Notes under the pieces: generated by a model | Seen by the model: the letters and a program-made list of their open reading frames with translations, nothing else | Databases searched by the model: none | Told to the model about the DNA's origin: nothing | Translations under genes and position numbers: made by a program | Source: Catajapyx aquilonaris | Lineage: Eukaryota | Direction: 5' to 3' | Length of the DNA: 64,000 nt | Assembly: GCA_000934665.2 (NCBI GenBank) | Contig: KZ538215.1 | Location: forward strand, 1 to 64,000 | Part shown: positions 35,704-56,811 of the stretch, one piece after another | Numbering within the stretch: position 1 is the first letter of the stretch | Layout of the letters: each line of letters begins with the position of its first letter

Positions 35704-37682
35704 CACTGCAGTTATTCTTTAATTTTTCTTTTGCATGATGTCTCAAGATCTACTAGATCACAAATTACCAAGAGATCACTTTAATTCAAAGTAATGAGTA
35801 ACTAAAATCAATGTCTCATAGGGCCGTTAACTGATCAAGGTGCAAAGTCAAGTAATTATCTCTCGCAAGCAGTGCCCAATAACTTACAATGCAAGGCTCA
35901 TTAGCTTGCTGCTTACCAACCATGCCTAAACAGTCTTCTAATTCATGGCCATAAACCTCAACACAACCACTTGACTTGCACGCCCTATACCTGCCAAGAT
36001 CCCTTCGCACTGTACTACAATGTTCCCAATGATGTGCCAAAACATGAAATCACATAATTATCATGATATCATTTCGTGGAATTGTTGTTATTTAACATGA
36101 CCACATCAGCATTCTCTTAGTGATCCAAGCCACAAATGGAGGCGAGTTCTCAAACACAGGGTCACACAACCATCAATTACTGTAGTACATTCCACCTCTC
36201 TCAAAAGACCATCTGCATCTCTCAGGTGGCAATCACCTTGAAAACGCCCATTGCAGTTACATTATCTGTAACATCTACCATCAAGAGGGGATAGTCACTT
36301 CTATAACTGGTTGTAAACAGTCTTGCTTGAACATAACACCAAGCATTTTACTGAGCACTTGAAAGCATGACTACCTTCTTCTGTCTAAGACTTTGAATGC
36401 ATATCCTACTTGTCCTTAATTACACCCCACTTACATGCCTTTCCATCACCAAAAGGGTCATCTCTATTGACCCCACACTATCTCTCCCTTCATGTCCTCA
36501 TTGCTGAAAGCTGATGTAAATGAACTATGGTATCTCTGATACAAAAATCATGTTGACATATGGAGAGCACGAGACCACAACCAATAACTTGATTGTCTGC
36601 CAATCAAGTTGTTGCATGTGTCAATTACAAGTTGTTCTGACTTCCAACTAGGCGAGTCTCTTAGAGCTCCATGTAAGCTTACTTCATCTACCTCTTCATG
36701 CTAAGAAGCCTGTAATACTTGTCATAAAATACTACCCTAACAAATCTAACATTGTACATTTCCATAGCCACAACACCCTTGGGCATGGCCAGTGAATACT
36801 TTTTCCGGGCCCAACTACCAAAGGAATCTAACACCTGAGGAGCTCCCCACTCTCATTGTCATTTCCCTCCACAAAGGACACTGAAATGTCAATAAAGCTG
36901 CTGCAGACCACATTACAAAATGCGACACCCACTGCATATGGCACAATGTAGCCTCCAGCAAAGCTGTCAGTAGCATGACAGCATGTACTTCTGGTTTACA
37001 TTCCTGACAACAGCCAGGTACCACAGTGACCATTGACAACTGCTGACACCCACCCAGGCCAACTGCTGTCAAACCTTTCTGGCGCCCCCATCCTCATGCA
37101 ATATTCAGTCAGGTGTCTGGAAGTAGTGTACCCCCAGTCAGTGGATCCACACAGCACACAACTGGTCCTAAAATGTGTGTGTGGGCCACCCCCCTACCCG
37201 GTCCTAGACCCGCCCTAACCACCACCAGGCGGGGGAAGGCGGGGGGGAAAAGGAGGGTGGAGGGCAACGGCAGGGGGCAAACACCCGAACCCACGATCGA
37301 AAGTTGATCCACCTACCCTCCCCCCCCCCTACCCCTCTACCTACCCTCTCCCCCCTCCCCCCCACCTCTTCTCATCTACCCTCTTCCTCCCACCGTGTAC
37401 CATCACACACAGGGAGGATGGGGGTGGTTGGGTTGGCAAAAACTATCTAGACATACATATATTTTGGGGTTGGGTCACACTCCGGGTGGAATGGAGGGGG
37501 AGGCTGGCTGACATTAGGGGGGGGAAGTAGGTGGACAGGTCCTACAGAATAATAATAAAAAATTTGTGTTCCAGCGAATGCTCAAATGGTGGTGGGACGG
37601 AACGGACTTACCTGGGGTGTGTACCGCCTGGGGTGGACCGCTGTTTCCCGGAAAACAACGCGATTTAAAAAACACCACTCAC

Positions 37683-38030
37683 ACTACAACCAAGCCCCAA
37701 ACGCCATATTGGACGGCCCGATCGACGCTCCCGAAGGGGGATGTAAGACGGGCTGCGATTGGCCCGACGGATCGGGGGGATCGGGACGGGCCCCTCTGTC
37801 GGGGCAAGGGCCGGCCGGGACCTCGGGGTGGAGAAAGGGAAGGGAAGGGAAAATACCCGGGGTGCTGATCTGTATGCGGGTCGGTCTGGGTCGCGGGTGT
37901 GGGCCCGGGGCGGTGTTTGCGAGGGGGCCAATCGGGGGCGGGGACACTGGGAGATGGTCGGGTATTGATTGGGACCTGGCTGGACAGGGGGCACCACCGG
38001 ATTGAACATTCAAGTTCAGCTAGCAGCCGG
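37683..38030 (-). other. probable non-coding first exon of the p190 RhoGAP gene
   Basis: CpG/GC-rich block next to the TMEM141 promoter, ending in a minus-strand GTGAGT donor (actcac, 37677-37682). The link to the 6399 acceptor is inferred. Confidence 0.5.
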
Positions 38031-38345
38031 CTGGTTGCGTATTAAACTTGACGGGAATTATCTTGATATTAATTAACTAATGGCGGGGGTGTCATGCTGA
38101 CATGATGATTAGGTCCGGGTCGGTGGGATTAGTGTGTTCAGGATAAATGTACCGGTACCAAAAATGTATGCACAACCTGCGTAGTCTGAAGGGGAGGCTC
38201 ATCATGCAATTATCGTAAATGAGCCATGATTAAATCCGGTGTACTGTAGCTGATCACATTTTTAGTAGAATTTCATGTGACATCCCGGTGACATCCACGT
38301 GAGATTACTTCCAGTGACGTCATCCAAGATGGCTGCGCACATGTT
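38030..38345. promoter_or_regulatory. putative bidirectional promoter (p190 RhoGAP / TMEM141-GTPBP6)
   Basis: CpG-rich; TCATGTGAC (38273), CACGTGA (38296), TGACGTCA (38315) and YY1-like CAAGATGGCTGC (38325). Confidence 0.6.
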
Positions 38346-38389
38346 GCCGAGTCGTTGGTTTTGGTGAGGAGAAGGAGCGAGAAGGAGCG

Positions 38390-39518
38390 ATGCAGGACAT
38401 GAACAGGGTGGTGAAGGAAGCCGAAGAGAAGTACCCAGCCTTTGGCAGCTACACCGAATGCATGTCCAGGGCGTTGCTCAGCGGTCTATCAGCATTTGCA
38501 CTCGGTACAAAAGCCACGTGCTCGTAGTGTGCACCTGATATTCATTCCAGTTCGGATGTTTCACTGCAATGCCATCCTCAATCAGAATGTGCAACCGGAA
38601 GAGCACGTTTCATGTGATTTTTTAGTGCATTATTCGGAAATAAACTCCAATATTAGGTAGCGACAAAATATCTCCTTAGAACTTAGATATGCATGTAGTT
38701 TTTCCTGGAGAAAAATCATAAGTAATTGAATGACCTGATAAAGCAGGGATAAATAAAAAATTTCGAGACAGCACTAATGGCCGGTTTCACCAAGCCCGGT
38801 TTTCATAAAATCTCCGGTTCTTTCGGAAAATCCATGCAAATAGAATAGGGATTTTCCGAAAGAACCGGGGTTTTTATGAAAACCAGGCTTGGTGAAACTG
38901 GCCATAACTGACATGAAGATACCCCTCTAAAGATTTCCCCTATTCTGGGGAAGCGCCAGAAGAGCTTATAGATTGCCTTATCCCAAGAATAGCAATTTAT
39001 AATGCAAATCCATTAAAGATTCTACTTCACAAAAGTACACTGAACAATGAAATACATCACCTTGGACTTCAGCCCTTGTTCTGTTGTGTCATTTAATTGT
39101 TTTTCTTGCTTCCTTTTCATCAAGGGGTTAACCACTTTGGTACTCCGGTGTACAGCTGCAGTGGTACTCCCAGGTACTCCTTAGGTACCTTACTCTTTGG
39201 TACTCCAGTGTACACTTTACACTCGAGTGGTTAACCCCTTGCTTTTCACCATACAAATGCTGTGTAACAGTTTAGTTGTGTAGTTCATGGACTGCCTCAC
39301 TATGATAATATGCAGTAATCAACCACTTGAATCTAGCCTTTTCAGGCACTTACTTGGTCCAGTCCGTTAATGCCCGAAGCCTGCCATACGGTGCCAAAGG
39401 CTTTGTGCTTGTGGCCAGCTTTGCTGGAGTTGCTGCCTCATACCACATCACAGCCAAGCGCACTAGGGCATGCCAGCGTGCTTGGGTCAAAGCAGACGGG
39501 ATAAAAGATGACTTCTAA
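38390..39518 (+). CDS. TMEM141: transmembrane protein 141 homolog
   Basis: Exons 38390-38504 and 39337-39518 (phase-1 GT-AG) give MQDMNRVVKEAEEKYPAFGSYTECMSRALLSGLSAFALAFSGTYLVQSVNARSLPYGAKGFVLVASFAGVAASYHITAKRTRACQRAWVKADGIKDDF*. This matches the TMEM141 pattern K.P..G.Y..C.S.A / PY / SY..T.....C...W with two hydrophobic segments. The spliced ORF is missing from the ORF track. Confidence 0.85.
38778..38904. mobile_element. PIF/Harbinger (Tourist-like) MITE in the TMEM141 intron
   Basis: TAA|TGGCCGGTTTCACCAAGCC...GGCTTGGTGAAACTGGCCA|TAA; almost fully palindromic with a 3-bp TAA TSD. Confidence 0.88.
39132..39230. mobile_element. small TTAA-flanked inverted-repeat element (piggyBac-like MITE candidate)
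   Basis: TTAA|CCACT...AGTGG|TTAA with several internal GGTACTCC motifs. Confidence 0.5.
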
Positions 39519-41221
39519 GGTGCTTAGTGCCTGCAGACATGTTGTAAAGACACTGATTGCTCGACGTATTCATGTATCAACTGCTGCATTTCGGGAGTTT
39601 TCTCCACAACCAGATGAAGACCCAGATGACTCAGAATATCAGGAGCTCCAGCGGCAGTACCTCCAGTTAGATGGCACTGAGCATCATGTACTAGTAGTGC
39701 AGCCCTATATCAAATGGGGTCCAAAGAAGCGGTACCACACCACTCCAGACCTCATGCTGCAAGAATCTGTCTCTTTGATCCGCACACTATCTGGATGGAG
39801 TGTATTGGATCAAGTAACTATTGGGCTTACGCATATCGGAAAGAAGCAGGTGTTTGGCACTGGAAATCTCAACAGGCTGAGGGAGAGGGTGAAGAAAGAC
39901 CATCGCATTACTGCTATATTTGTGAGCATTGATATGCTGACTGGCTTGCAGTACCGGGAGCTGTCTGATCTATTCCATGTACGGATATATGATCGGTACA
40001 CCATAGTGCTGCATATTTTCACACAGCATGCACAATCACAGGAGGCCAAGATGCAGGTAGCTTTGGCAGAGATCCCGTACTTAAGGTCTCGGTTACGAGA
40101 TGCTGAGGGTGAAGTTGATAGGGCATCTGGAGCAGCATCATACACATCCGGATCAGGCGAGACATATCTTGAAGTTCAAAAGCGATTGTTGGCTGTGCGC
40201 GAGAAAAAACTGGTCACTGCTATTAAAAGTCTGAGGGCAAGACGGACATTGCTGCGAAGGCGCCGACAAAAGATGGATTTTCCTGTGGTGGCAGTTGTTG
40301 GTTACACAAATGCTGGGAAAACATCACTGATCAAGGCACTGACAGGGTCGGAGACCTTGGAACCTAAAGACTACCTCTTTGCAACCTTGGATGTCACTGT
40401 CCACAAGGGTCTTCTGGCATCTGCTCTGGAGGTGCTATACGTAGACACAGTTGGTTTCATATCCGACATTCCCACTGCTCTGGTAGAGGCATTCGTTACT
40501 ACACTGGAGGATGCAATGCTAGCTGTAAGTAACTGACTTATTTAATATACTACAGCAGAATCAGAACATGGGTACTGACAATTTAGCAATCAATCATGAA
40601 AGACTAGTGATGTCAGTGCCAATGTCCATTACTGGGCCTGTAAATTTCTAAAATTTTGTCTTGCAAAACCTAGGACTTGATCATCCATGTCCGTGACATA
40701 AGCCACCCAGACACAGTGTCCCAGGCTGAAAATGTGGACAAGACTCTTGAGAGCCTCCTGCAGGACCGCAAGGTACTAGAAAACACCATTGTGGTTGGCA
40801 ATAAGATTGACCTCTTGGACGGTGAACCCCCTGGTGACTTGATGACGGTGTCATGTGAAAAAGGTACTGGATTGGCTGAATTGAAGAACTGCATAGAGAC
40901 GGAGCTTCTGAGCCTAACCAACCGGATCAAAATGATCTTCAGGGTCAAGACAGGAGGCTCAGAATTCAGGTACTTATATTAAAGAACATTCTGAGAGGAG
41001 CAAATTTATTATTCACCGGTTTTTCTTGCACTTGGGTCACTCAGTTCCTTTGTTATTATAATCATACATTCTTCTTCAGTTGGCTGTACAAGGAAGCCGC
41101 AGTAGAAGACACAGCCCCCGATCCTTCGGACAGTCAATTTACATTTGTGAAGGTCATCATATCACAGTCAAATCTGGCCAAGTTTAAGCACCGTTTCGGG
41201 GGCGTGGACTACCAGGGCTGA
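39508..41221 (+). CDS. GTPBP6: GTP-binding protein 6 (HflX-family mitochondrial GTPase)
   Basis: Exons 39508-40524, 40674-40969 and 41080-41221. G1 GYTNAGKTS, G2 LFATLD, G3 DTVGF, G4 NKID; HflX N-domain motifs (FGTGN, IF.QHA.S.EAK.QVALAEIPY, SGETYLE); Arg-rich acid-free N-terminus; AATAAA at 41265. Confidence 0.95.
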
Positions 41222-42356
41222 TTTTTTTTCTTATTTTTTTTCTTTTTGTAGTCATCACATGGTTAATAAAGCAACTCTTTCGCACAAAATGTCTTTTGTT
41301 ATCAACAATCACATGAGTAGTTGGCAAAGTCATTAGTTTACGGAGGATGTGGGGAGATAACCTGCGTTATTCTGTAAAGATTTGCCACCTTTTATATAAC
41401 TGGCACTACAATATGAGTTTTGGTAAAAACCAAACCAACAGTAACGGTAAACAAGAGTTCTGAATACTTGTACAACAAGAATCACAAAAAAATAGAGGTC
41501 TACTATAATATTATGAAGGGGAAGCATTCAGATTGAAATCCCTAAGACTCATGTAGACTTTATAATTACCAATACATGCTATTGTTGTTTTTCACTCTCT
41601 ACCTTAATAATATTATAAACTTTGACAAAACCTTTCAACAGGGCACCAAAAAAAACAACAAGGTATGTGAATAAATAGACCGCTAGTAACTTAACGGTCC
41701 TCAGTAAACAGGGTAGGTGAGGCTGGATATGCAAAATAACTTTCTGCCACAATTCCAATAACTGCAACCACTCCAAATATGTACACAAATGCAAATTGTA
41801 ACAGAGGTGAGGCAATGATCACGAAAAGGAAAACTGATATCATGATTACTATACAGAGAAAATCGTTAAGCACAATAGGCTATTATGTGGTAGGTGTGTT
41901 GCAGGATAAGGGAGGCGAGGAGAAAAAATGTTCAGGTTCGGAGGAACTGGTAACCAGTGCAAAAATACATCTTTCCTCACTACCTTGTATTTTTTTCACC
42001 CCTCCCCAAAACCCCCACCACCCTGTCCTCTCTTTCACTGTCCTTTTCACATGCTCACGGCACTACTCAGATACTTTTTCAAGTCATTTTCACGCAGAAT
42101 ATTTTCTATGCCATTACTGTTGCACAATTTCCAGTTTCTTCTCAACAGTATCCTGAGCGTCATCAGAGGTTTTTCTTCCAAACGGTTTCACTTTCAAGCA
42201 TCAGCAAATTGTTATACTTTTCATTCCCACTTTCATATTTAGTGTGGTATACAGGTAACATCTTAAGGGCCTCTACAAACTAGGCAGATGGCACTGGGCG
42301 ATAAATTCGGATCCTCTCCCAACTGCCAAAATGATGCAACAAGATAAAAATATTCT

Positions 42357-45300
42357 TCATAGGATGCAACACTGCAAGGGAAAAAAAACACACAATTGGT
42401 TAGACAATTGGCTACCAGTGGAGCATATTTCCGATAGTTCATGCCGTGACATAACAGTGACACCCGCTGGGAAAGTTAAATCTAAAAAAAGAAGTCATTT
42501 TGCAAATTGATGGCCACTGACTTTTAAAACAGTTTCCAGCAACTGCCACTGTGATAATAATAATAGTAGTGTTTTAAGCAATGCACTGAGGGTATACTGC
42601 AATTATTCCTTTACATTACGGTCTCCAAAAAAAATATAAATAAATAAAAATATTCTCTAACAGCACCAATGGCCTAAGAAAAACACATCAATAGCTGTGC
42701 ATGTGCACTGGTAAATCTCAAATTTTATTGACACAATGTCTCCGACTTGGATGCACTTCTCTTTTGGTGCACCTCAGATGGCATTCACGATTTTGAGTTA
42801 GTCTTAATGCATGATTCACCAACTGAGCATGCTGCAAAGTAATAAAAATGTCACAATTTTAAATGAAAAAATTAAGGACATGCAAACATCACAAAGTAAT
42901 AAGTGAAAAAATTCTAGCTGTTTCTAGTATCGTTTGAGCCTTTTGTGGGACTTTATCCGTTAGGGTCTTAAAAAGTGGGATGTGCCAACTGACCCATGAC
43001 TTCCCAAAATAAGATCTGTAATTGCAAGTTACTTTGAAGAGTATGAAGAATAATCACGATTTTTGTTGCCCAATTTTTTCAACTGTTCTGATTAGAAGCA
43101 TTGGACACAGCATGCATGATACCCTCTTTTAACTATTTGTGCAGAGGTCAGCAATGATGCCTCAGTTCCGAAATATCACTTTCATGCTAATTAACATTTG
43201 CAAAAACATTCATCATATAATATCTGGCCTGCTATGAGTTTTCTGATTCAAAGTTCAAAGCCAAGAACTGTCAATTGGCATTTTCCCAATGGAAAAATTA
43301 AATAAATACAAAAGCTCAAAACCTGCACATGCATTTGAATACACACAATGAACTGCCTGATCACCCAAAAAAGGGGGAATAGAAAAGCTGGAAAAAGATC
43401 GTGGTCAAGATGTACCTAATGTCTCTCTAATCGAAAGCCGAAATCTTCCCCACAGACAACTCTACTTTTCCCTGAAGAAGAAGGAGAAGAAGGAGAAGAG
43501 AAGTTCTTCCTTCTCTTCATGCAGTTTCCTACAGCAATGAAAGGGAATTCCAAGAATAAAATCCCCATTAACTTCATTCAGTTCAGAGTTGGAGGAAATT
43601 ATTTTGGGGGAGATTCTTTGTAAAAAGAGGGCGACTAAGGTCAGGCATCATCAGGAAAACTTTACTGAGACAAATTTCTCCACTTGGGGTCAGCTCTGTC
43701 TGTATTCAAGTGCATCAAAATCACACTGTTTTGCTTTTCTGCTCATTTTTTTGGTAAAAAAAAAAGGAAACATTAAAATTTCCCCAGTCGAAACTGGAGA
43801 GTACCCAATCGCTGTGATGTGGAATGGAGAAATGTGCCAAAAAAGATCTCAAATGCGAGATGCCCAACACCAAACAGAGTCCATGACTCCTCTGCACAAG
43901 CCTTCCATTGTCACCAATGTACACTAAATATTAAATTGCTTCCATATAATAATTGTCCAAGATCTAGTTCTGCAAGTGCAAAGCAGTCATGAATCCAACC
44001 ACTTTCTCTCCAGTGTCAGACCTGCACGCAAAAAAAGGAACAGGGACAAGACCACTGACACAATTAGTAGTCAAGTCAGGTGCAGGTTGTGCTGGTAAAA
44101 TCCAGCCAAATATAGTCACATTCAAGAACTGCTGCATATTGCTCTCGGTGACATGGGTATGAGGTAGGTGATAGGTACGTCTATTGTTACTACTCTCTGT
44201 GAGCAAAAAATGCAGGGTGACTGAGAAATGACTAATTTGCAAGAATCAGGAATCGTTGTAAGTGCCCTTATTAACACTGCTTGAGATACCCTTCAGCATA
44301 CAAATGCACATTTGCAGAATAATTATAAAAATATTCATTTGGTCAGCATGTACGGATTGGTTGATTTTTTCATGTACACTACATCAAAAGACACCTGCAA
44401 TTTTGTTTTCAAATGGCACACCATAAGTTATGTCAATATAATTACTTATTTGTGATTCATGTAAAGTTTACCCATACAGTTTCACACAAAGGGAAGAATA
44501 TGTTGTCATAGGCTGAGAGGTCCTGCACATTCCATTATATGGTAAAGCCTCATTTGATTGTGCCAGTATTTCTGGTGAGTTACAATCTTTCCTCCAGAGT
44601 GTCAGCTCTCAGACATCCTGCAAGAGGGTGCTTTCAGGGATGGGGTCAAGGGAGGGTTCTTTTGTTCACTTACCGATCCCTTCTTGTCCCTCTCGCCCCG
44701 AGATGATCCAGATGATGATGATCCTGCCCCAAACCTTCTCTGGGGGCTCCCCCTTCCCTCCGCTAGTTCCCCACCCTGAGGCACACCCTGAGACGGACTC
44801 TGGCGACCCTGCTGCCCTCCTGGCTGCCCTCCTTGCTGTGGTGGCTGCCCCTGTACCTGCCCTTGCTGCTGCTGAGACTGTACCTGGCGCTCCTCCTCCT
44901 CCTGGAGCCGCCTGGCCAATTCCTCACTAGTGGGTAAGAACATGTACTTGTAATACTCTAAAATCACGACACAGTAGTGGGCAGTAAATGAGCTACTTGC
45001 AAGTTACATAGTTAAAAAAGGCTAATATGTAAATGAGTTATTAGTAATTCTGAGTGTGCACTTGGAACCTTACTGTAAATCAAAAAGAGACTTGAAATGT
45101 TTTTGCCTTATGTGTAAAATTACGAAGATAATTGAATGCATTTATCTTTTAATAATCTGCTTAGTAGTCATATCATTTGACCTCAGACCATAACAAATCA
45201 TTGATAAAATTTCCAGTGTTACTCTAGTGTTATTTAATATGGATAGAAAAAAGTTCACAATTTACATAAAAAGGGTAGGCAGGCAGGAAATAATCGGGGT

Positions 45301-48300
45301 GTACACCTCCATTTACATTAGGATGGCATACTCCATGCTCATTTTGGAACATATTTTTCTCTAACTACTGGAAAGGTTATGTTACTGAAGTGAAACCACC
45401 CAACAGGTACCAGATGCACACTGAGGCCAACCTGTAAGATTAATACAGCTTTGCACAAGCAGTTACTCTCCAGCACTCCTTGATAGTAAGGCCGATTAAT
45501 GGAAGATGCCAAGGCAACTAAGGCCATAAGGCTATAAATTCAGGAAAGGGGGGGAAACAAACAGGAAGAGGGAAATGGATAGAGAAGTAGGGCAAAAATG
45601 TACATCTCTTTGAACATGATCCGCACCCTCTACTAAATTTTTTTCACCGTCTAACTCAGCGTTCTCAACCGGAATTCCTCGAAACCCCTGAGTTCTGCAA
45701 TAAAAAGCAAGGGGTTCTTCCAGAAATATTGATAATAGGCTAATCACATGTAGATAAATTTTTGGGTCATTCATTGATATACAAGAAATCCTTGGTCTAC
45801 GAACGGGGTTACGTTCCTGAAAATGTATGTAAGTACGTACTACGTAACTTGAATCCACGAGAAAAAGTGCATATATGCAGCACAAATATGTTGCTCCAAT
45901 AAACCGCTTACGTCATGTGTGTTCGTTTATACGCACAGAAGAACTTAGTGCCCCAATAATTTATTAATTATACAGTATAATATGTAGAGCTTGGTGTCGG
46001 TCAACATACACAGAAGTGATTCAAAGTGGATGGATAATAATTATAAATTATCCTACTGCGGAGCCTTGGAGGCCCGTTCGTAAGTACGAATCTCCATAAG
46101 TCGGGTTGTTCATAAACCGGAGACTTATGTAAGGGTTCCCTGAGACAAAAATGATTTCAATGGTTCTGCAAGGGTGAAAACCGCTGGTCTAGCTTATAAT
46201 TTTAGTAAAAGTGTCAAATTGTGAAGGGGCAAAGCTGGTGCATAAGCTAAACAAATCATTATCATAACATATATTATTGCCAGGCTGGGCGCAGAGTGCA
46301 CATGTAGAAGTCAGTGTTCATGATCATTTACATTGAGCCAACTCCAACCCCACTGGCTCTATGCAAAACAACCCCACCCATAAGAAAGCACAAGAAGTAA
46401 ACAAAATATCATGCAACACAATAGGTACACTTAGAGAGATTAAGACAGCCCAAAAACGTACTCGGATATGTCAGTGTCTGCACCCAACTGTTTACTCTTA
46501 AACTCTTCCCAGGCCATCTCCTTCTCCTGCTGCCTCTTCTGCTCTTCTTGGAGCGAGAGGGCAACCAAGTAGCTGCCAGGGGGAAAGGGATTATGTGGAC
46601 CATTTACAGGTGCCCTCTAGAGAAGTTTGTTGGAGTTCCAGGAAAGGAGGTGATATGAAGGGCAATGGAAAATATAACCATACATACTCATGATTTATTT
46701 GCTGCTCCTCTGTGGCTCCAGCAGGAAGGGGAGATAGGTCACTCTCTAGGACCTTGGGTGGAACGGTGACAAACTTCCCATCCACAAACTCACCATCACC
46801 TTCTATGTTTGACAGTGTCTCCCACACCACTTTTGTCTCACTCAGAAAGCCTTGGTCTGTCACAAGTTGAAACAGTTCATACTGCAATTTTAAATCAATC
46901 AAATTAAAAATAATATTCCATACAACTATTCACAACTTTACAATACCTGAGAGCATGAAATAATGTCAATAAAAATTTGCAGCTTAAGTTTACAGTCTTC
47001 GTAACCTGCACCATTGATCACTATCACCATAAACACAAGTGAACACCACCATGCTTTTAAAAGGAGTGACAGCATGTAGAGATGAACCAATGATTCCCTT
47101 TAATTGAGCTATGTTACCAAGCCACTAAGGCATACCAGAAGTACGTAACACAAAACCTCAGAAAAATCAACGAAATCTTTCTTCCTACATGATTTCCTTT
47201 CAAGTTCAGAGCTCATGCAGGTTTAATGAAAAATGCACTCCCATTTGCATTCAGATGTCATAAAGCTTCTTTGAAACACCAGACACTGATAGGCAGATGG
47301 TTCAGAAGTATGTGTTGCAGTAGGTGATAGACATTTATTTCTGGAAACCTGACAACATGTGCATAGCAGACAAGATATACATCCACATGAATTTTGTAAA
47401 GAATAATTTGCCATCACATAAGCAAAACTATCTGCAGACTTAAGTTGCAAAGATAACGAGGATGGAAGTACGTATAGTCCAATGTATTACTTTCTTGGCA
47501 ATTATATACACGTGGTACATCAACAATGGGTCAGTCATTCCTTTATGATGTGTGCAGTACCACTGTGATATGCGGTTAACACCACTCAATGATAGTTACC
47601 TTCCTCTTGAAGACAGTGCTGAAGTGATTGTTCCTAAAGAAGACGGCAAGCTCATCTTCCTTCATTGTAGACACAAGTTCACAGAGGCCATGATACGTTA
47701 GCTGAGATGCAGTCTTCTCCAAGAACTGCTCCGCAATCAAAGCTGCAAGAAAATTAATTCCTTCTTGTAATGGTCTGCAAACTCTACAGTTTCTGGCACC
47801 AAATGGACCTTGAAAGACTGGGCAAATCAAAGGGATATCACGAGTGTAACTATTTACTTGCTAATGCTCAGAGTAACTACTCAACAAGGAGTATTACAAT
47901 AATGGGCATTAGGTTACCTTCTGTGACTAGTTGTGTGTCTGATGAGCACTTGTTGGTAATGATCTTCTCCACCAATTGATTATAGCCAGTGGTTCCGACT
48001 GCCAACACTGCCTCTTCTCCCTGTGGATCCACAAGCCAGCCGTGGTACAGGGAGATGTTCAGGAGGTCAAATATTATACACTCAGGAGTGTACTCAAATT
48101 CTTGCACCCTGACGAAACAGAGAAACGGAAATAAGTAAAACTGGCCAGTAAATAATGTAAATTATAAAGTGTAATATTATAAGTAGGCAAAAAACAAATA
48201 AGCCCTTACCCAGTAAATTTTACGTTGACGTCAAGCCCAGTTTGTAGCTTAGGCAGGACGGACATGGCATCATTCATGTTCTGCTCAAAATTCAGCTGGA

Positions 48301-49639
48301 CTCCAGCAGAAATGTTCTAGAAGCATGATCAAGGGGTTTTCACAATTTTGCCCAAATTATCACAATTATTCAGTTTCCAGTGTATGCTCAGAGATTTGCA
48401 TAATTATTCTACCTTAACCAATCTAACTAATAACACAATTATTGTATTCAATGTCCTGTAATAATACAGCGAAAAAAAAATCCATAATGCATTACCACAT
48501 AAGCAATCACCCTATGCATTCAAAAAATTGCTGCTTTAAAAATGAAAGCATTATTAAAACACTCAGCTGAAAACATATTCCAGTAATTCCTTAGTTAATC
48601 ACAGTATTTTGTGCATGAGAAATATTTGCTAATATCAAGTGCATTGATTATAAAAATTTGCATCATCCCAAGTGCTGAATCCATGTCAGCAATCACTAGA
48701 CCATTTCAGTTTGTGATTGTCATATAATTATGTAACCCTAGTCCATTGTTAATGAAAGCAACGTAAGCCTGCATGATGTTGAAATACCATTAAGTGGCCA
48801 ATGAACCGTAAAAATCCAACATGATTCATCTACACATTTGCAAACTTTCCAATTATCATGCTCATGCAAAAGGTATAGGCTCTCTGCCTCCATACATGTA
48901 ATTCCTGTCCTTCTGTATGCAAATGTGGCTTAGATTTGGAAGGGAGAAAAATGTATGAAAGTGTCAGTTTTAAAAAAGTTGGCATTTTCGCAACATGTGC
49001 AAGATGAAGTCAGTAATTACTGACGCATTATTTTCTTCCTTGACATGCCATGACTAAAGATGTTTTGGCCAATTTATGCAATAATGTTGCTATTACCTTT
49101 GGTATGTTCTCAAGGATGGTGTTCCCAATCATCTGCAAGAGCTCGCTGGCACTGATGACCTCAAGATTCGGGGGCAGCTTGAGCTTCTCCCTAAGCAAAA
49201 GCACGTTGGTGATTGCTATAAGTGGGCATGGCCCATTCTCATTTTGAGTGATAATATGTGTTTGCTTGTCCTTCCACAAGATCTTCTTAACGTGGTGAAA
49301 TGGGGAGGACGAGGACAAGGAGGAGGAAGAGGGTGCAGCAGTCGTAGCTGAGGAGGATGAGGGCGACCCTCTTGGCTCAACAGCCATTGCCTCCGCTGCA
49401 TGCATTTCCTCCATCGTCTCTGCCACAATGCACTCGGCAACACTGTCCACCTGATTCTCTGCAACACTGGACGACACTTCCAGCACCACGCTGCTCTTGC
49501 CCTCTATGCCACTTTCTAGCATATTTGACCCACCCCCGGAGGTGCTCACACTTTCTTCAGACTTGTCACTGGCTCCTGCTTCTCCAGAGAAGCAGCCACC
49601 TGTGTCCATGGCTCCTGACACTGTGCTGCAGGAGGCCAT
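42357..49639 (-). CDS. MINDY1/2: MINDY-1/2 (FAM63A/B) K48 deubiquitinase
   Basis: Exons 49639-49097, 48316-48210, 48108-47918, 47742-47600, 46881-46688, 46572-46462, 44926-44674 and 42371-42357, all phases consistent. Catalytic QNENGPCPLIAI and FFRNNHFST; LYHGWLVDPQ; LVTDQGF; two MIU-like motifs (DYLVALSLQEE, DEELARRLQEEE); C-terminal CAAX CCIL. Likely non-coding exon 1 at ~51315-51480. Confidence 0.93.
45657..46186. mobile_element. hAT-type MITE containing a nested pogo-like element
   Basis: CAGCGTTCTCAACC...GGTGAAAACCGCTG with near-perfect 8-bp TSD GTCTAACT/GTCTAGCT. Confidence 0.75.
45782..46129. mobile_element. pogo/Tigger-like MITE nested in the hAT element
   Basis: TA-flanked; degenerate TIRs CAAGAAATCCTTGGTCTACGAAC / GTTCATAAACCGGAGACTTATG; repeated GTAAGT(A/C) subterminal motifs. 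Confidence 0.55.
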
Positions 49640-51479
49640 CGCTTTTAGTCACCGGTCTGAATTCAGATGAGTGGCCAGGACGGGAATGTCAAGTTCCTGG
49701 TGTCCTCACCACACTGCTCTAATTTAAAGTTAGATGACCTGCAATCAAAACCAGTTTTTTGTGCATTACAAAAAAGGATAGTACTGAAACTGTCCCTAAA
49801 ACACATGTCACAATATGCAAAATGTGTGTACACCTTATCAATCTAGTTGTCAAGCTCTGGCAGGAGTACACCCATATGCTAGCTACAGATATTGCTATTT
49901 CTAGTTACTGGCTGCTGACATCATAAGATAAAGTGTCGTACTAATGACGCAGAATGGGTATAACCAGCTATCACACACCGGAAGCCATCTCTCGCTCACT
50001 AAATACAAATAAAAATTCATTATAGCATTCTAGACATCAAATGCACTTAAAATATTAATCTCCGTGTCGTGGGATCCACCACCAAGTCCAAAAAACCAGT
50101 TTCGAGATAATCCAAGACAAAAATTCGATCTTGCACTTGTTTACATGCTAGTGAATACTGAAAATCCTGGCTTGCTGGCCCATTACGAATGGACTAAATG
50201 GACTTCACCTGACAACAGAGCAAGAAAAAGTGCAGTCTACACCGGATATAAGAGGAACCATGGAAATCAGTACCCTATGACTGAGGTTTCCTATATCCAT
50301 ACCCATAGGCCACATATGGAAGTATGATGGGACCAGCCTTTCTAGTTGGCAATAATTGAGGGTTGCTTATACCTGGGAGTCTTATATCCGGAGTCAACCA
50401 TATAAAAAACTTATAATCACCAAAATTAGGCAGCGGAATTTCCTCACATCCCAGCAACATTATGCCCATGCTGCCATCCACACACGCTAATTAACGACCA
50501 GTCTCCCACAAGTCCCACGACAATTCTTGAGGGTATATTGCAATTTTCTCTCTACTTGCAACCACATACGTGTTGTACTGTATCCCACCCACATTTTCTT
50601 TTGTATTCAGATGCTCTGTTTAATTGTTGAGTTTACAACGTTTGCTCACAACAACAGGTGACAGTGCATTCCATGCATTATGCTATCAAGCTCATGTTAT
50701 AATTTATTAGAAAGACTTGGGTCTTGGTGGCATGTACAAGCAACATCCCTGTATGTCAATGCACAACAACAAACTCGGAACAAAGTCGGAAGCTATTCCC
50801 AGGACTCGTCTATCAGCCTGACGTATCCTTCAGGCATCAACCAGAAGCAAGTTCACGATCCCTCGCATGTACAGTGCACATGGCCAACATTTCCTCTGCG
50901 CTGTTAGTGTCCAGCCTTGTCAGACCCATCCGCAGCACCAGTCGTGGCTTCCCCTTCCCCCACCTTTACTTCCAGCCCTAAATAACCCTTCTGGTGTGTG
51001 CAGCACCAAGGCCTCCCCACCAAAAAAACCAACCCCCCATTTCCCTCCCCCACCTCAAAAAACAATCCTAAAATGAGTCAGAGTCACACTTTGGGCATGA
51101 CTAACGATCCTCCCAGTGTGCCAAGGAGGGACGCTGCAGCAGTGATGCCCCCAGGAATGTCTCTTCCCCGCGACACCCTCTCCTGTCACCCCATACGCAT
51201 CACGGGTCACTTTTTCGGAGGAGACGTCACTTACCACCTTCGTCCCTCTCTCTCTAACCTTCGTCCCTCTCTCTCTCTCTCCATTTTTTCCCTCCCCCCT
51301 TCTTCGCAGCTCACCTTCACGCAAGCGCCTCCGAAAGGATCGCCAGCATGACTAGAGCAGTCGCCGACGATGACGGTGCGTCTGGGGGGGGACAGGAGGG
51401 AGGGGACGGTCGGCCGGGCGGCGGGGAAAGGCGGCGGCGGCGGCGACACTAGAATTCCAGCCAAAATAATTATGAGGAA

Positions 51480-52127: not shown

Positions 52128-54165
52128 ATGGAGGCGGATAGACGAGGGCATACCAGCAACGGGAACGATCTCGGGTGTGTGGGGCCTCCTCCGCAGGTAG
52201 GAGACTGCCCCACAAGGAACACTGGTCAAGGGGCCATACCGAAGAGGACAGAGGCCACAAACCATCAGAGCATACCGAAGAGGGCAGAGGCCGCAAACCA
52301 TCAGAGGGTGACACTGAATAAGAACACGGGGCCTGCCACGTATTTTTTTACTGGCCCGATGGCCAACAGCCACGCCGATGGGGCGGAATCACAGAGGCCA
52401 GGCTCTAAGCAAAAGGCAACTTGTCCACAACGGAAATCAGAACCAGTACCAAGACAACTGGCAATGAGTGCACCAGAAAGGGCTCTGGTATCAGCTCCAG
52501 ATGTGGCCACGTGTGAACCAGAAGTGTGGACACCACAGAGGACAGCATTCATGCCAGAAAGGTTGACAATGGCGGTGCCACAAAGGGTGTCCGTGCCAGA
52601 CAAATCAGGATACTTGGTCCCAAACAGATTGACAATGGCGTCACAAAGATGCAGCATCCCAGAAGCAACTGGCTTGGCAACATCAGCACCTGTGGAGAAG
52701 ATGGCAGTGGCAACTGCAGTTTCAGAGGATGGGGACCTGGCTGAGAAAGTTAGAACCACATTACTTGGCACATGGAACAACATGAAATATAGTAAGTATT
52801 GAAGTAAGACGTGGTAATGATTCATTATCCAACTATGTAAAAGGCCTAAGTTATGATGCAAGTTGTATAATGCACAGTTACCCTTCCAGGTCTAACGTCC
52901 AAGTTACGCACCAACTTCTCCAAGAGCATGCCCGTGTGGCTACTTGGCGAGCTGTACCAGCACCCATATGGCGGTCAAGATGAAGAGGACCCAGATAACG
53001 ATTCTGTCCGTGCCTGGATTGAAGCCTTCAAATTAGACTTCGCCACCAGACTGTGGCTCACTTATCGGAAGGAATTCCCAGTTCTGATGGGTCGGGACTC
53101 GACCCAGTACATTACAGACTGTGGATGGGGTTGTATGCTTCGGAGTGGACAGATGATGCTGGCCCAGGCTCTCGTCTGCCACCTACTAGGCCGTCACTGG
53201 AGATGGAAGGAAGGGGGGCAAGGGCCAGAGGAAAGAAGGCACCGACAGATAGTGAGATGGTTTGCAGATGACCCCAGTCCAGCCTGCCCTTTCTCACTCC
53301 ACCAATTAGTGGCAATGGGAGAGGAGACTGGGAAGAAAGCGGGGGATTGGTATGGACCAGCATCAGTGGCACATCTGATGAGGCAAGCCATGGAGAAGGC
53401 ATCACAGGAGCAAGTGGCACTCAGGGACATTTGCATCTATGTTGCACAGGACTGCACTGGTAAAAGGATTCTGTCAAAAGAGTTGACTGGTTTTTAATGT
53501 AGCTCTCTGTTTCAGTGTACCTGGGTGATGTTGCAGACTTGTGCGAAAAGCGTCCTGAAGGCTTACAAGAAAGTGGTGAAAGTATTGGATGGAAGTCTGT
53601 GATTATTTTCATTCCTGTACGCCTGGGAATGGGAAAACTGAACCCGGAGTACTCCAAGGCCATCATGAACCTCCTGGTGCTTAAAGAGTGCCTAGGGATA
53701 ATTGGGGGAAAGCCTAAGCATTCACTCTACTTTGTTGGATATCAAGGTATTAATGAGCATGGATTTTTCTGTCTTATAGTCTCGATGGCTTTTTCTTCAA
53801 CTGGTATATTGTCCTTTACCTCAGACAAGAAGCTGATCCATCTAGACCCACACTACTGCCATGAAGTGGTGCAGACAGACCAGTCTGACTTCCCTCTGAG
53901 CAGTTTCCACTGTCGTTCCCCGAGGAAGTTGGACATCCATAAGATGGATCCATCCTGCTGCATTGGTTTCTACTGCAGGACTAGGAGTGATCTGAATGGC
54001 CTCGTGGACTACATACTGAATCAAAGAGAAGAGTGCCCCCTGTTTGCTTTCGACTTTGGGCACAACCTGTATTTGTATAGTCAACCAGAAGAGAGAGAAG
54101 AGACTGTCTCCAACACTGCCAATGACAGCGATTACGAGTCTGAAGAGTTTGTGATTTTACAGTGA
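52128..54165 (+). CDS. ATG4: cysteine protease ATG4 (ATG4C/D-like)
   Basis: Exons 52128-52791, 52890-53459, 53516-53746 and 53825-54165. WNNMKY, WLTYR.EF, catalytic TDCGWGCMLRSGQMMLAQAL, GKKAGDWYGP, GIIGGKPKHSLYF.GYQ, IHLDPHYC, KMDPSC and C-terminal LIR EEFVIL. The start of the low-complexity N-terminal extension is less certain. Confidence 0.93.
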
Positions 54166-55930: not shown

Positions 55931-56811
55931 ATGGCCAGCAGCATAAGGGCCATCTTCTCATACACCCTGATCATTCTGGCCGTCTCCACCATCGTCATTT
56001 TCGGTAATTATAATATTGGCGACCCAAGCAGCACTGTGAATCACTCGTGGGTTGCCCGTGATGATCACGGGGCTGATTGTGTGGGGTAGTCCGCTTTGGG
56101 TATAGTGGAAAGTGTTCGATAAAAACAAACCAGTACGCACCCACTCGTATACATGTAACTTACAGTTCCCGGTGTGTTTTTCTAGCCACTTACTACACGC
56201 TGACTGGTAAGGGAGAGCGAGTGGACATTGGGTGGTTCCTGACCCAGACCTCGCCGTACATGTGGGGCGCCATTGGGGCTGGCCTCTCTGTGGCCATCTC
56301 TGTGGTGGGAGCAGCTATTGGGATCCACACCACGGGGGTGAGCATCATTGGCGGAGGAGTGAAGGCGCCACGCATCAAGACCAAGAACTTGATCTCGGTC
56401 ATCTTCTGTGAGGCTGTGGCCATCTATGGGCTGATTACTGCTATTGTGTTGTCTGGGTTGTTGGAAAACACCAATCTGTCCAAAGTGACGGATCCCAAGG
56501 TCATGGCCACCATCTGGGGGTCAGGGTACCTCATGTTTGGGGCAGGAATCACTGTTGGGTTTGTCAACTTGGTGTGCGGCATAGCTGTCGGGGTCGTTGG
56601 ATCTGGAGCCGCCCTGTCAGATGCAGCCAATGCGGCTCTCTTCGTCAAGATCCTCATCATTGAAATCTTTGGGAGTGCCATTGGGCTCTTTGGGCTCATT
56701 GTGGGCATTTATATGGTAAGCTACTTCATTACTTAATGATGAACCACGCTTATGTGTTTCTTTGATATTTTGCAGACAGCGAAGGTGACGCTAAGTGCAA
56801 AATCATCGTAA
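55931..56811 (+). CDS. ATP6V0B: V-type proton ATPase 21-kDa proteolipid subunit c'' (VhaPPA1-like)
   Basis: Exons 55931-56003, 56186-56715 and 56776-56811. [47 protein letters not shown] (essential Glu) and [23 protein letters not shown]. Confidence 0.96.

What the first reader, a model, noticed from the sequence alone, without database searches (positions are those of the whole stretch)
38390..41221. TMEM141 and GTPBP6 overlap in one exon: candidate bicistronic mRNA
Seen: TMEM141 ends ...GGG ATA AAA GAT GAC TTC TAA (stop 39516-39518), while GTPBP6 starts at ATG 39508 in the +1 frame, an 11-nt overlap. A TAA at 39502 blocks in-frame upstream extension of GTPBP6. There is no polyA signal or CpG-rich promoter between the two ORFs, and the first AATAAA after them is at 41265. 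The GTPBP6 N-terminus (MTSKVLSACRHVVKTLIARRIHVSTAAF) looks like a mitochondrial presequence, supporting this start. Inference: one transcript yields two unrelated proteins, by termination-reinitiation, leaky scanning or alternative first-exon splicing. Dicistronic mRNAs are known in insects; I do not know whether this pair has been described.
Basis: partly seen in the sequence, partly recalled or inferred. Interest (0 to 1): 0.8.

Follow-up and report, generated by a model that had tools for sequence, protein, structure and literature searches.

The report
TMEM141–GTPBP6 overlapping two-gene transcript
Two genes for mitochondrial proteins, TMEM141 and GTPBP6, share one exon and apparently one messenger RNA here, an arrangement already annotated in fruit flies and found in several other insects and crustaceans.

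Summary
TMEM141 (Pfam PF15110 on both exons) ends at TAA 39516-39518. GTPBP6/HflX starts at ATG 39508 in the +1 frame, giving an 11-nt overlap, and TAA 39502 closes its frame upstream. In one RNA-derived run, a single 1656-nt contig with no mismatches joins TMEM141 exon 1, the shared exon and the later GTPBP6 exons across GT..AG introns. It also moves the TMEM141 acceptor to 39337. The tandem recurs elsewhere: fused gene models in Timema and Petrolisthes, overlapping ORFs on metagenome contig L001 (29 nt, same +1 frame), and a hemipteran-like transcript ORF whose 5' extension decodes to TMEM141 in the other frame. It is not new in kind. FlyBase annotates CG42488-CG5116 (the GTPBP6 orthologue) as dicistronic with a 29-nt gap, and CG5116 also has a monocistronic transcript. 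Hayden & Bosco's supplement shows the fly upstream ORF is TMEM141-like. How GTPBP6 is translated here is untested. Verdict: an orthologue of a known insect dicistronic locus with a new overlapping geometry, conserved among insects and crustaceans. Interest is moderate.

The parts
37500..38357 (+). G+C- and CpG-rich stretch upstream of the transcript; presumed shared promoter
   Evidence: GC 0.57-0.61 and CpG o/e 0.85-0.89 at 37500-38000. The RNA contig begins at 38358. Promoter function is inferred, not tested.
38358..38504 (+). TMEM141 exon 1: 5' UTR 38358-38389, then CDS from ATG 38390
   Evidence: Contig record 1 covers 38358-38503/4. PF15110 profile positions 2-34 match. The AUG context is GCGAUGC, with G at -3.
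38505..39336 (+). TMEM141 intron (GT..AG, 832 nt) holding two MITE-like inverted-repeat elements
   Evidence: The joint 38503/4 to 39336/7 skips 832 nt with GT..AG ends. RNA contigs on 38773-38898 and 39104-39320 carry mismatches and loose ends, so they are repeats from elsewhere.
39337..40524 (+). Shared exon: the end of the TMEM141 CDS (to TAA 39516-18) and GTPBP6 coding exon 1 (from ATG 39508)
   Evidence: Record 1 covers 39336/7-40524 continuously with 0 mismatches. PF15110 positions 40-88 match, and GTP-bdg_N, GTP-bdg_M and MMR_HSR1 match.
39508..39518 (+). 11-nt overlap ATGACTTCTAA: the GTPBP6 start lies 8 nt before the TMEM141 stop, in the +1 frame
   Evidence: Stops in all three frames fall within 39502-39518: TAA 39502, TGA 39509 and TAA 39516.
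40525..40673 (+). GTPBP6 intron 1 (149 nt, GT..AG)
   Evidence: Joint 40524 to 40674.
40674..40969 (+). GTPBP6 coding exon 2
   Evidence: Record 1 covers 40674-40964. The frame is kept in the joined model. tblastn with the L001 GTPBP6 matches it.
40970..41079 (+). GTPBP6 intron 2 (110 nt, GT..AG)
   Evidence: Joint 40964 to 41075, with the cut movable by +5. The model is in frame with 40969|41080.
41080..41290 (+). GTPBP6 last exon: CDS to TGA 41219-41221, then a short 3' UTR with AATAAA at 41265
   Evidence: The 3' end itself was not observed, and the right-hand limit is an estimate.
41016..42372 (-). Probable 3' terminal exon of a convergent minus-strand gene (MINDY deubiquitinase, coding exons at 46.6-49.6 kb), overlapping the last GTPBP6 exon antisense
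   Evidence: Contig records 4 and 5 (depth 77-83, against 11 for the TMEM141-GTPBP6 contig) cover 41016-42372 unspliced and then join elsewhere. MINDY_DUB exons lie on the minus strand. The link between the two is inferred.

Best explanation
This is the orthologue of the Drosophila dicistronic locus CG42488-CG5116. TMEM141, a small two-helix mitochondrial membrane protein, and GTPBP6, the HflX-type mitoribosome GTPase, are transcribed from one CpG-rich promoter upstream of 38358. The product is one spliced mRNA in which the second exon carries the end of TMEM141 and the start of GTPBP6, overlapping by 11 nt. TMEM141 is translated as the cap-proximal ORF. GTPBP6 is most likely reached by ribosomes that finish TMEM141 at UAA 39516 and restart at the AUG 8 nt upstream, that is, termination-coupled reinitiation. 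A monocistronic GTPBP6 transcript from an internal start may add to this, as annotated in the fly. Shown: the ORF geometry, the protein families, an RNA-derived contig across both genes, and recurrence of the tandem in other insects and crustaceans. Inferred: that the contig is one molecule, the promoter, and the whole translation mechanism.
For: Geometry and families.

RNA: in run X1, one 1656-nt contig with 0 mismatches joins 38358-38504, 39337-40524, 40674-40969 and the start of 41080 onward across three GT..AG introns.

A TMEM141 mRNA has no AATAAA to end at before 41265. The only exonic variant hexamer is ATTAAA at 40222, already about 700 nt into GTPBP6. Any TMEM141 mRNA therefore carries the GTPBP6 start.

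No CpG-rich stretch lies between the ORFs.

Conservation:
- Timema douglasi and T. bartmani models fuse PF15110 to the GTPBP6 domains.
- The Petrolisthes cinctipes model P0131 does the same.
- P0178 reads from the TMEM141 C-terminal half into the GTPBP6 N-domain.
- On L001, TMEM141 is at 25-354 and GTPBP6 at 326-1846, a 29-nt overlap in the same +1 frame.
- The 5' extension of P0049 decodes to TMEM141 P0147 residues 29-100. It scores 341 against a control maximum of 194, and is 1 clear outlier of 70 proteins scored.

Fly: CG5116 is given as the GTPBP6 orthologue. FlyBase File S1 lists CG42488 as dicistronic only and CG5116 as its partner, with 29 nt between stop and start. The fly upstream ORF, extended with genomic sequence, is TMEM141-like.

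Against leaky scanning: 6 AUGs precede the GTPBP6 AUG in the window mRNA and 5 in L001, and the TMEM141 AUG has a purine at -3 in both.

The GTPBP6 AUG has A at -3 in both.
Against: The read-laying tool warns that a contig across two genes shows no single transcript. Only one run from one study holds the locus, its library kind is not on record, and it may come from the same sample as the assembly.

No read starts, cap data or ribosome data exist.

In Drosophila the GTPBP6 orthologue also has a monocistronic transcript from an alternative promoter, so the dicistronic RNA need not be the source of GTPBP6 protein.

The geometry is not conserved. There is a 29-nt gap in the fly, an 11-nt and a 29-nt overlap in the +1 frame, and roughly 47 nt in the other frame in P0049. 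This argues against a precise coupling device.

Reinitiation after an ORF of about 100 codons is generally inefficient (established knowledge, recalled).

No unusually stable RNA structure surrounds the overlap. The z-scores are 1.67, -1.50, 0.57 and -0.33.

L001 may be genomic DNA rather than RNA, since an intact RPS23 gene lies on its opposite strand.
Confidence: 0.6

Rival explanations
1. Nested promoter. The dicistronic RNA serves only TMEM141. GTPBP6 protein comes mainly from a separate monocistronic mRNA that starts in the TMEM141 intron or in exon 2 upstream of 39508.
For: FlyBase records exactly this extra transcript for the fly orthologue: CG5116 'has alternative monocistronic transcript(s)', with the evidence given as 'alternative promoter'. 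Six upstream AUGs make the dicistronic RNA a poor template for GTPBP6. A de Bruijn contig would merge the two RNA species (tool caveat).
Against: No CpG-rich or otherwise distinct stretch lies in 38750-39500. The RNA contigs listed on the intron carry mismatches or loose ends, so they are repeats, and none of the pieces shown runs from the intron into exon 2. However, 21 pieces and 10 loose ends were not shown. It is harder to explain why the ORFs stay abutting or overlapping across crab, branchiopod-like, hemipteran-like, phasmid and fly lineages if they were independent.
Confidence: 0.25
2. GTPBP6 is translated from the dicistronic mRNA by leaky scanning past the TMEM141 AUG, or by internal ribosome entry, rather than by reinitiation.
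For: The Rule-Benders passages state that most fly dicistronic pairs do not meet the requirements of a scanning mechanism and that an IRES may be common. The TMEM141 AUG context has C at +4, which is not optimal.
Against: Six AUGs in the window and five in L001 precede the GTPBP6 AUG, and the first has a purine at -3. No stable structure stands out around the junction.
Confidence: 0.07
3. Operon-type processing. A dicistronic precursor is cut and the GTPBP6 part receives a trans-spliced leader.
For: Spliced-leader operons with almost no intercistronic space are known in some animal groups (recalled). An AG at 39496-97 lies shortly before the ATG.
Against: The ORFs overlap, so cutting between them would destroy one of them. 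No loose end was listed between 39337 and 39507, though 10 loose ends were not shown. The fly locus is annotated as a processed dicistronic mRNA.
Confidence: 0.03
4. Artefact. The contig is a chimeric assembly, or TMEM141 here is a decaying remnant that is not translated.
For: There is a single run of unknown library type.
Against: The contig has 0 mismatches over 1656 nt and three exact GT..AG joints. The TMEM141 ORF is intact, both exons exceed Pfam's cut-off, and it is 51% identical to Timema over 92 ungapped residues. The same arrangement occurs in other lineages.
Confidence: 0.03

Closest known systems
Drosophila melanogaster dicistronic locus CG42488-CG5116 (FlyBase r6.04, Rule-Benders File S1; conserved-peptide uORF of CG5116 in Hayden & Bosco 2008)
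   Same: The same two protein families occur in the same order on one strand. The upstream ORF is TMEM141-like, and its read-through of genomic sequence breaks at the same place as the window's intron. The downstream ORF is the GTPBP6 orthologue. It is annotated as one processed mRNA.
   Different: The fly has 29 nt between stop and start, where the window has an 11-nt overlap. The fly downstream gene has a documented monocistronic alternative, which is unknown here. The 2008 paper listed conservation only as far as D. willistoni (Sophophora). In the text I searched, the upstream ORF is not called TMEM141.
Other Drosophila dicistronic pairs with overlapping or abutting ORFs, some mitochondrial (CG33649/DNApol-gamma35, 4-nt overlap; CG44194/CG17327, 16-nt overlap; Ccdc56/mtTFB1, 88-nt gap)
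   Same: These are two sequence-unrelated proteins on one mRNA with a tiny spacer or an overlap (File S1 part 1).
   Different: The proteins differ, and their conservation depth was not examined here. That DNApol-gamma35, Ccdc56 and mtTFB1 are mitochondrial is recalled.
MOCS2A/MOCS2B bicistronic gene (CG10238 in fly)
   Same: It is a dicistronic arrangement kept across distant eukaryotes (passage).
   Different: Its two products are subunits of one enzyme. No physical link between TMEM141 and GTPBP6 is known. The overlap details of MOCS2 are recalled, not checked.
Viral termination-reinitiation (calicivirus VP1/VP2 with TURBS, influenza B M1/BM2 UAAUG, pneumovirus M2-1/M2-2); recalled, from no call
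   Same: The downstream start codon sits within a few to a few tens of nucleotides of the upstream stop, in another frame, after a long upstream ORF.
   Different: No 18S-complementary TURBS motif was tested and no structure was found. The spacing and frame vary between lineages.
Spliced-leader operons of nematodes and tunicates (recalled)
   Same: Two genes are transcribed from one promoter.
   Different: Those operons yield monocistronic mRNAs by cleavage and trans-splicing. Here the ORFs overlap and the spliced RNA contig spans both.

Membership tests
TMEM141 (Pfam PF15110) | Match to the family profile over its length, above the curated cut-off | tested here: met
   Exon 1 scores 36.1 bits (profile 2-34) and exon 2 scores 39.3 bits (profile 40-88) against a cut-off of 27. 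With the acceptor at 39337, the protein is 51% identical to Timema TMEM141 over 92 ungapped residues.
TMEM141 (Pfam PF15110) | Small protein with two hydrophobic helices | tested here: met
   The protein is 98 aa. Kyte-Doolittle windows above 1.2 fall at about residues 24-47 and 53-79.
GTPBP6 / HflX-type GTPase | HflX N-terminal domain, middle domain and G domain in this order | tested here: met
   PF13167 matches residues 84-171, PF16360 matches 174-253 and PF01926 matches 261-331. The protein is 54-58% identical to proteins that sources name GTP-binding protein 6.
GTPBP6 / HflX-type GTPase | Mitochondrial targeting | tested here: inconclusive
   The first 29 residues are basic (6 K/R) with no acidic residue. 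No targeting predictor or experiment was available.
Dicistronic gene in the FlyBase sense (one processed mRNA spanning two complete CDSs) | Two complete CDSs on one strand with no terminator or promoter signals between them | tested here: met
   The ORFs overlap by 11 nt, there is no exonic AATAAA before 41265, and CpG is low between the ORFs.
Dicistronic gene in the FlyBase sense (one processed mRNA spanning two complete CDSs) | A processed transcript that spans both CDSs | tested here: inconclusive
   One spliced RNA-derived contig spans both. However, contigs can merge overlapping RNAs, and it comes from one run of one study.
Dicistronic gene in the FlyBase sense (one processed mRNA spanning two complete CDSs) | Both products translated from that mRNA | not testable with these tools
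   This needs ribosome profiling, reporters or proteomics.
Orthologue of the fly CG42488-CG5116 locus | Same two families, same order and strand, shared intron position in the upstream gene | tested here: met
   compared by eye. That CG42488 is the extended uORF is inferred from the shared reference FBrf0205942 and from the absence of a '<60 aa' flag.
Termination-reinitiation (TURBS type) | Restart codon close to the upstream stop | tested here: met
   The AUG lies 8 nt before the stop in the window and 26 nt before it in L001.
Termination-reinitiation (TURBS type) | Upstream motif pairing with 18S rRNA, and dependence on upstream termination | not tested
   No 18S sequence of this organism was in hand. 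No conserved structure was found.
Spliced-leader operon | Leader sequence joined at an acceptor upstream of the downstream cistron | tested here: inconclusive
   No loose end was listed in 39337-39507, but only contigs were available and 10 loose ends were not shown.

The most novel reading that the evidence does not exclude
The TMEM141-to-GTPBP6 dicistron is an ancient eukaryotic 'operon' shared at least by insects, branchiopod-like crustaceans and crabs. On this reading it is kept because GTPBP6 synthesis is coupled to the termination of TMEM141 translation. That coupling would tie the dose of a mitoribosome recycling GTPase to a complex-I-associated inner-membrane protein. It would imply that TMEM141, whose function is largely unknown, acts in mitochondrial translation or OXPHOS assembly.
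Probability: 0.2. Interest if true: 0.6.

Novelty: new member of a known kind. Interest (0 to 1): 0.4.

Why it matters
Dicistronic mRNAs are common in flies (159 pairs in FlyBase r6.04), but few have been traced far beyond Diptera. This pair was listed in 2008 as conserved only within Sophophora. The window, L001, the Timema and Petrolisthes models and the decoded hemipteran-like ORF show that the tandem spans insects and crustaceans. They also show that its junction drifts from a 29-nt gap to overlaps of 11, 29 and about 47 nt in two different frames.

This gives a natural series for asking how a second cistron is translated after an ORF of about 100 codons. It also links TMEM141, a mitochondrial protein of largely unknown function, with the mitoribosome factor GTPBP6.

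There is a practical point for annotation. Gene predictors either fuse the two genes (Timema, Petrolisthes) or are likely to drop TMEM141.

Tried and rejected
- **RNA runs:** The look-up of sequencing runs listed no RNA holder. The only holder, X1, has no library kind on record.
- **Earlier findings and own genome:** No whole genome is held for this window.
- **Fused forms with the window's TMEM141:** a word-index search with exon 2 for longer proteins found nothing among 416 candidates.
- **Locus search with alignment A1:** The single-protein query P0122 then found 1 locus among 193 pattern matches.
- **Regex for the +1-frame image of the conserved TMEM141 C-terminus:** run over all stored proteins of 300 aa or more, it matched only P0072.
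- **First decoding script:** it timed out.
- **Decoding test:** the best-case scoring has a high background (control medians 120-150). Apart from P0049, no protein stands clearly above the controls; P0072 is marginal at 165 against a control maximum of 162.
- **RPS23, convergent to GTPBP6 on L001:** it has no match in the window.
- **RNA folding around the junctions:** nothing unusual was found.
- **Tree:** the careful search did not finish. The quick tree leaves the window unresolved.
- **Literature:** TMEM141+GTPBP6 gave 0 papers. TMEM141 plus 'cistronic' anywhere gave 0. CG42488 gave 0. GTPBP6 plus 'cistronic' gave 17 papers, and by title the 14 listed concern mitochondrial translation or other topics, not this locus.
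- **Complex prediction:** not used, because neighbouring genes alone are not a reason to claim binding.
Full report
**1. Observation**

A two-exon ORF starts at ATG 38390 and ends ...GAT GAC TTC TAA with its stop at 39516-39518. A long ORF starts at ATG 39508, one base out of frame, so the two share 39508-39518 (11 nt, ATGACTTCTAA). TAA 39502-39504 closes the second frame 3 nt before its ATG.

Pfam confirms both identities.
- PF15110 (TMEM141) matches exon 1 at 36.1 bits and exon 2 at 39.3 bits, against a cut-off of 27.
- PF13167, PF16360 and PF01926, the HflX/GTPBP6 architecture, match the ORF from 39508.

The full GTPBP6 model is 39508-40524, 40674-40969 and 41080-41221. It is in frame and 484 aa long. 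Its best matches are proteins that sources name GTP-binding protein 6, at 54-58% identity.

AATAAA occurs at 38639 and 38752 and ATTAAA at 39012, all inside the TMEM141 intron. ATTAAA occurs at 40222 inside GTPBP6 exon 1 and at 40978 in an intron. The next AATAAA is at 41265.

CpG observed/expected is 0.78-0.89 over 37500-38500 and 0.31-0.48 over 38750-39500. The only CpG-rich stretch therefore lies upstream of TMEM141.

**2. RNA evidence**

Only one public run (X1) holds the locus. Its library kind is not on record.

Its contigs skip three GT..AG introns, so they derive from RNA. One contig of 1656 nt, depth 11.2, with no mismatches, covers 38358-38503/4. It then joins to 39336/7-40524, then to 40674-40964, and then to the first 30 nt or so after 41075/41080. 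It thus carries the TMEM141 start codon, the whole shared exon and the later GTPBP6 exons.

It also corrects the TMEM141 acceptor to 39337 (AG at 39335-36). This adds three residues, fills the gap at Pfam profile positions 35-39, and gives a 98-aa protein. That protein is 51% identical to Timema TMEM141 over 92 residues without a gap.

The tool warns that a contig across two genes does not prove one molecule. Independent of that, a TMEM141 mRNA has no canonical signal at which to end before it has run well into GTPBP6. RNAs that carry TMEM141 must therefore carry the GTPBP6 start.

**3. Recurrence elsewhere**

- **Timema (stick insects).** Gene models of Timema douglasi (586 aa) and T. bartmani (616 aa) carry PF15110 followed by the GTPBP6 domains.
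- **Petrolisthes and P0178.** A phmmer search of 1.84 billion representatives with the TMEM141 part of the Timema model gave 68 hits at E <= 0.001. Three of them are longer than 200 aa.
  - P0131 (491 aa) is a Petrolisthes cinctipes model with TMEM141 residues 1-79 fused to GTPBP6.
  - P0178 (257 aa, unnamed, contig 96,678 nt) reads from the C-terminal half of TMEM141 straight into the GTPBP6 N-domain.
  - P0171 (1183 aa) looks unrelated.
- **L001.** A scan of metagenome contigs with P0122 returned L001 (2564 nt). Its TMEM141 ORF is at 25-354 and its GTPBP6 ORF at 326-1846, a 29-nt overlap with GTPBP6 again in the +1 frame. L001 lacks the TMEM141 intron, which suggests cDNA. It also carries an intact RPS23 on the other strand, so it could be genomic. 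The 5'-open JGI protein P0072 starts with the +1-frame image of the TMEM141 C-terminus.
- **P0049 (decoded extension).** I decoded which residues the N-terminal extensions of GTPBP6 homologues could encode in the other two frames. Of the 121 stored GTPBP6-type proteins, 70 matched my anchor motif and were scored, and 51 were dropped. One, P0049, is a clear outlier, at 341 against a control maximum of 194. Its extension decodes to residues 29-100 of TMEM141 P0147. Here GTPBP6 is in the other frame, and the TMEM141 stop lies about 15 codons after the GTPBP6 Met.
- **Quick tree.** The careful search did not finish. The quick tree puts L001 and P0072 with Artemia (support 96) and P0049 with Aphis (support 100). 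It leaves the window unresolved among the insect and crustacean rows.

**4. Already known in flies**

A table passage in PMC7993632 gives CG5116 as the fly counterpart of GTPBP6.

File S1 of the FlyBase 'Rule-Benders' paper (PMC4528330) was read in part 1 and through search passages. It lists CG42488 as 'this member di/polycistronic only'. [quoted passage not shown] The distance is 29 nt between stop and start.

I saw the additional files of Hayden & Bosco 2008 (PMC2276209) as passages. They give a 15-aa uORF for CG5116. They also give an 'extended' version using genomic sequence that is plainly TMEM141-like from its N-terminus to the ...ACQAAWM... motif. Its read-through of genomic sequence sits at the same position as the window's intron. 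Their table lists conservation only as far as D. willistoni.

That CG42488 is this extended ORF is my inference. It rests on the shared FlyBase reference and on the absence of a '<60 aa' flag.

The searchable literature does not use the names TMEM141 and GTPBP6 together (0 papers). It does not mention TMEM141 with any '-cistronic' word (0 papers).

**5. Mechanism**

The TMEM141 AUG is cap-proximal with G at -3. Six AUGs precede the GTPBP6 AUG in the window mRNA and five in L001, which makes leaky scanning unlikely. The GTPBP6 AUG has A at -3 in both.

In the window, stops in all three frames fall within 39502-39518. Any ribosome translating the shared exon therefore terminates within 10 nt of the GTPBP6 AUG. 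This fits termination-coupled reinitiation.

Several points count against a dedicated device. Spacing and frame differ between lineages. No unusual structure is predicted around the junction. The fly has a monocistronic alternative.

I put 0.6 on a shared mRNA with GTPBP6 translated at least partly from it by reinitiation. I put 0.25 on an internal promoter supplying most GTPBP6.

**6. Function**

TMEM141 is called a mitochondrial membrane protein in a methods passage of PMC8664129. The abstract of PMC13486791 reports it in mitochondria, interacting with complex I. GTPBP6 as a mitoribosome recycling and biogenesis factor is recalled, in line with the titles listed. The two cistrons therefore serve the same organelle, as do some other fly dicistronic pairs (the localisation of those is recalled).

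**7. Verdict**

The interpretation as a dicistronic unit is supported at the RNA level and by orthology. The translation mechanism is open. The locus is a new member of a known kind, with an overlapping geometry and a phylogenetic depth not stated in the papers I could search.

Noticed in passing
window 41016-42372 (minus strand), with MINDY_DUB exons at 46594-49648: RNA contigs of much higher depth (77-83, against 11) cover 41016-42372 unspliced and then join elsewhere. This is probably the long 3' terminal exon of the convergent MINDY deubiquitinase gene, overlapping the last GTPBP6 exon and intron 2 antisense.
   Followed up: partly
window 38773-38905 and 39120-39245 (TMEM141 intron): There are two short elements with terminal inverted repeats, MITE-like. 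RNA contigs from elsewhere match them with mismatches and loose ends, and the summed depth reaches 160.
   Followed up: no
window 39470-39511: A 13-codon ORF in the third frame ends with TGA at 39509-11, overlapping the GTPBP6 ATG (AUGA). Together with TAA 39502 and TAA 39516, all three frames stop within 17 nt.
   Followed up: partly
window 38364-38389: A direct 10-nt duplication (AGAAGGAGCG twice) lies immediately before the TMEM141 ATG.
   Followed up: no
window 39337 versus 39346: Two AG acceptors lie 9 nt apart, in frame. The RNA contig uses the upstream one. The downstream one would delete three residues.
   Followed up: partly
window 52871-54162, 56077-56733, 58407-59842 (plus strand); 61451-61792 (minus strand): The neighbouring genes are an ATG4-type peptidase C54, an ATP-synthase/V-ATPase subunit c, a carnitine/choline acyltransferase and a U1-type zinc finger protein.
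   Followed up: no
L001 2035-2466 (minus strand): An intact, intronless RPS23 lies convergent to GTPBP6 on the metagenome contig. It has no counterpart in the window.
   Followed up: partly
protein P0178 (unnamed, contig 96,678 nt): One open frame runs from the TMEM141 C-terminal half through about 140 residues into the GTPBP6 N-domain. In that lineage the TMEM141 stop may be missing, which would make a true fusion, or the ORF call may be an artefact.
   Followed up: no
TMEM141 homologues P0127, P0136, P0150 and L001: Several C-termini end ...KHTYFTEN[GDE]. In L001 the AAT-G of this motif supplies the GTPBP6 ATG, so the start codon may be embedded in a conserved TMEM141 motif in that clade.
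   Followed up: no
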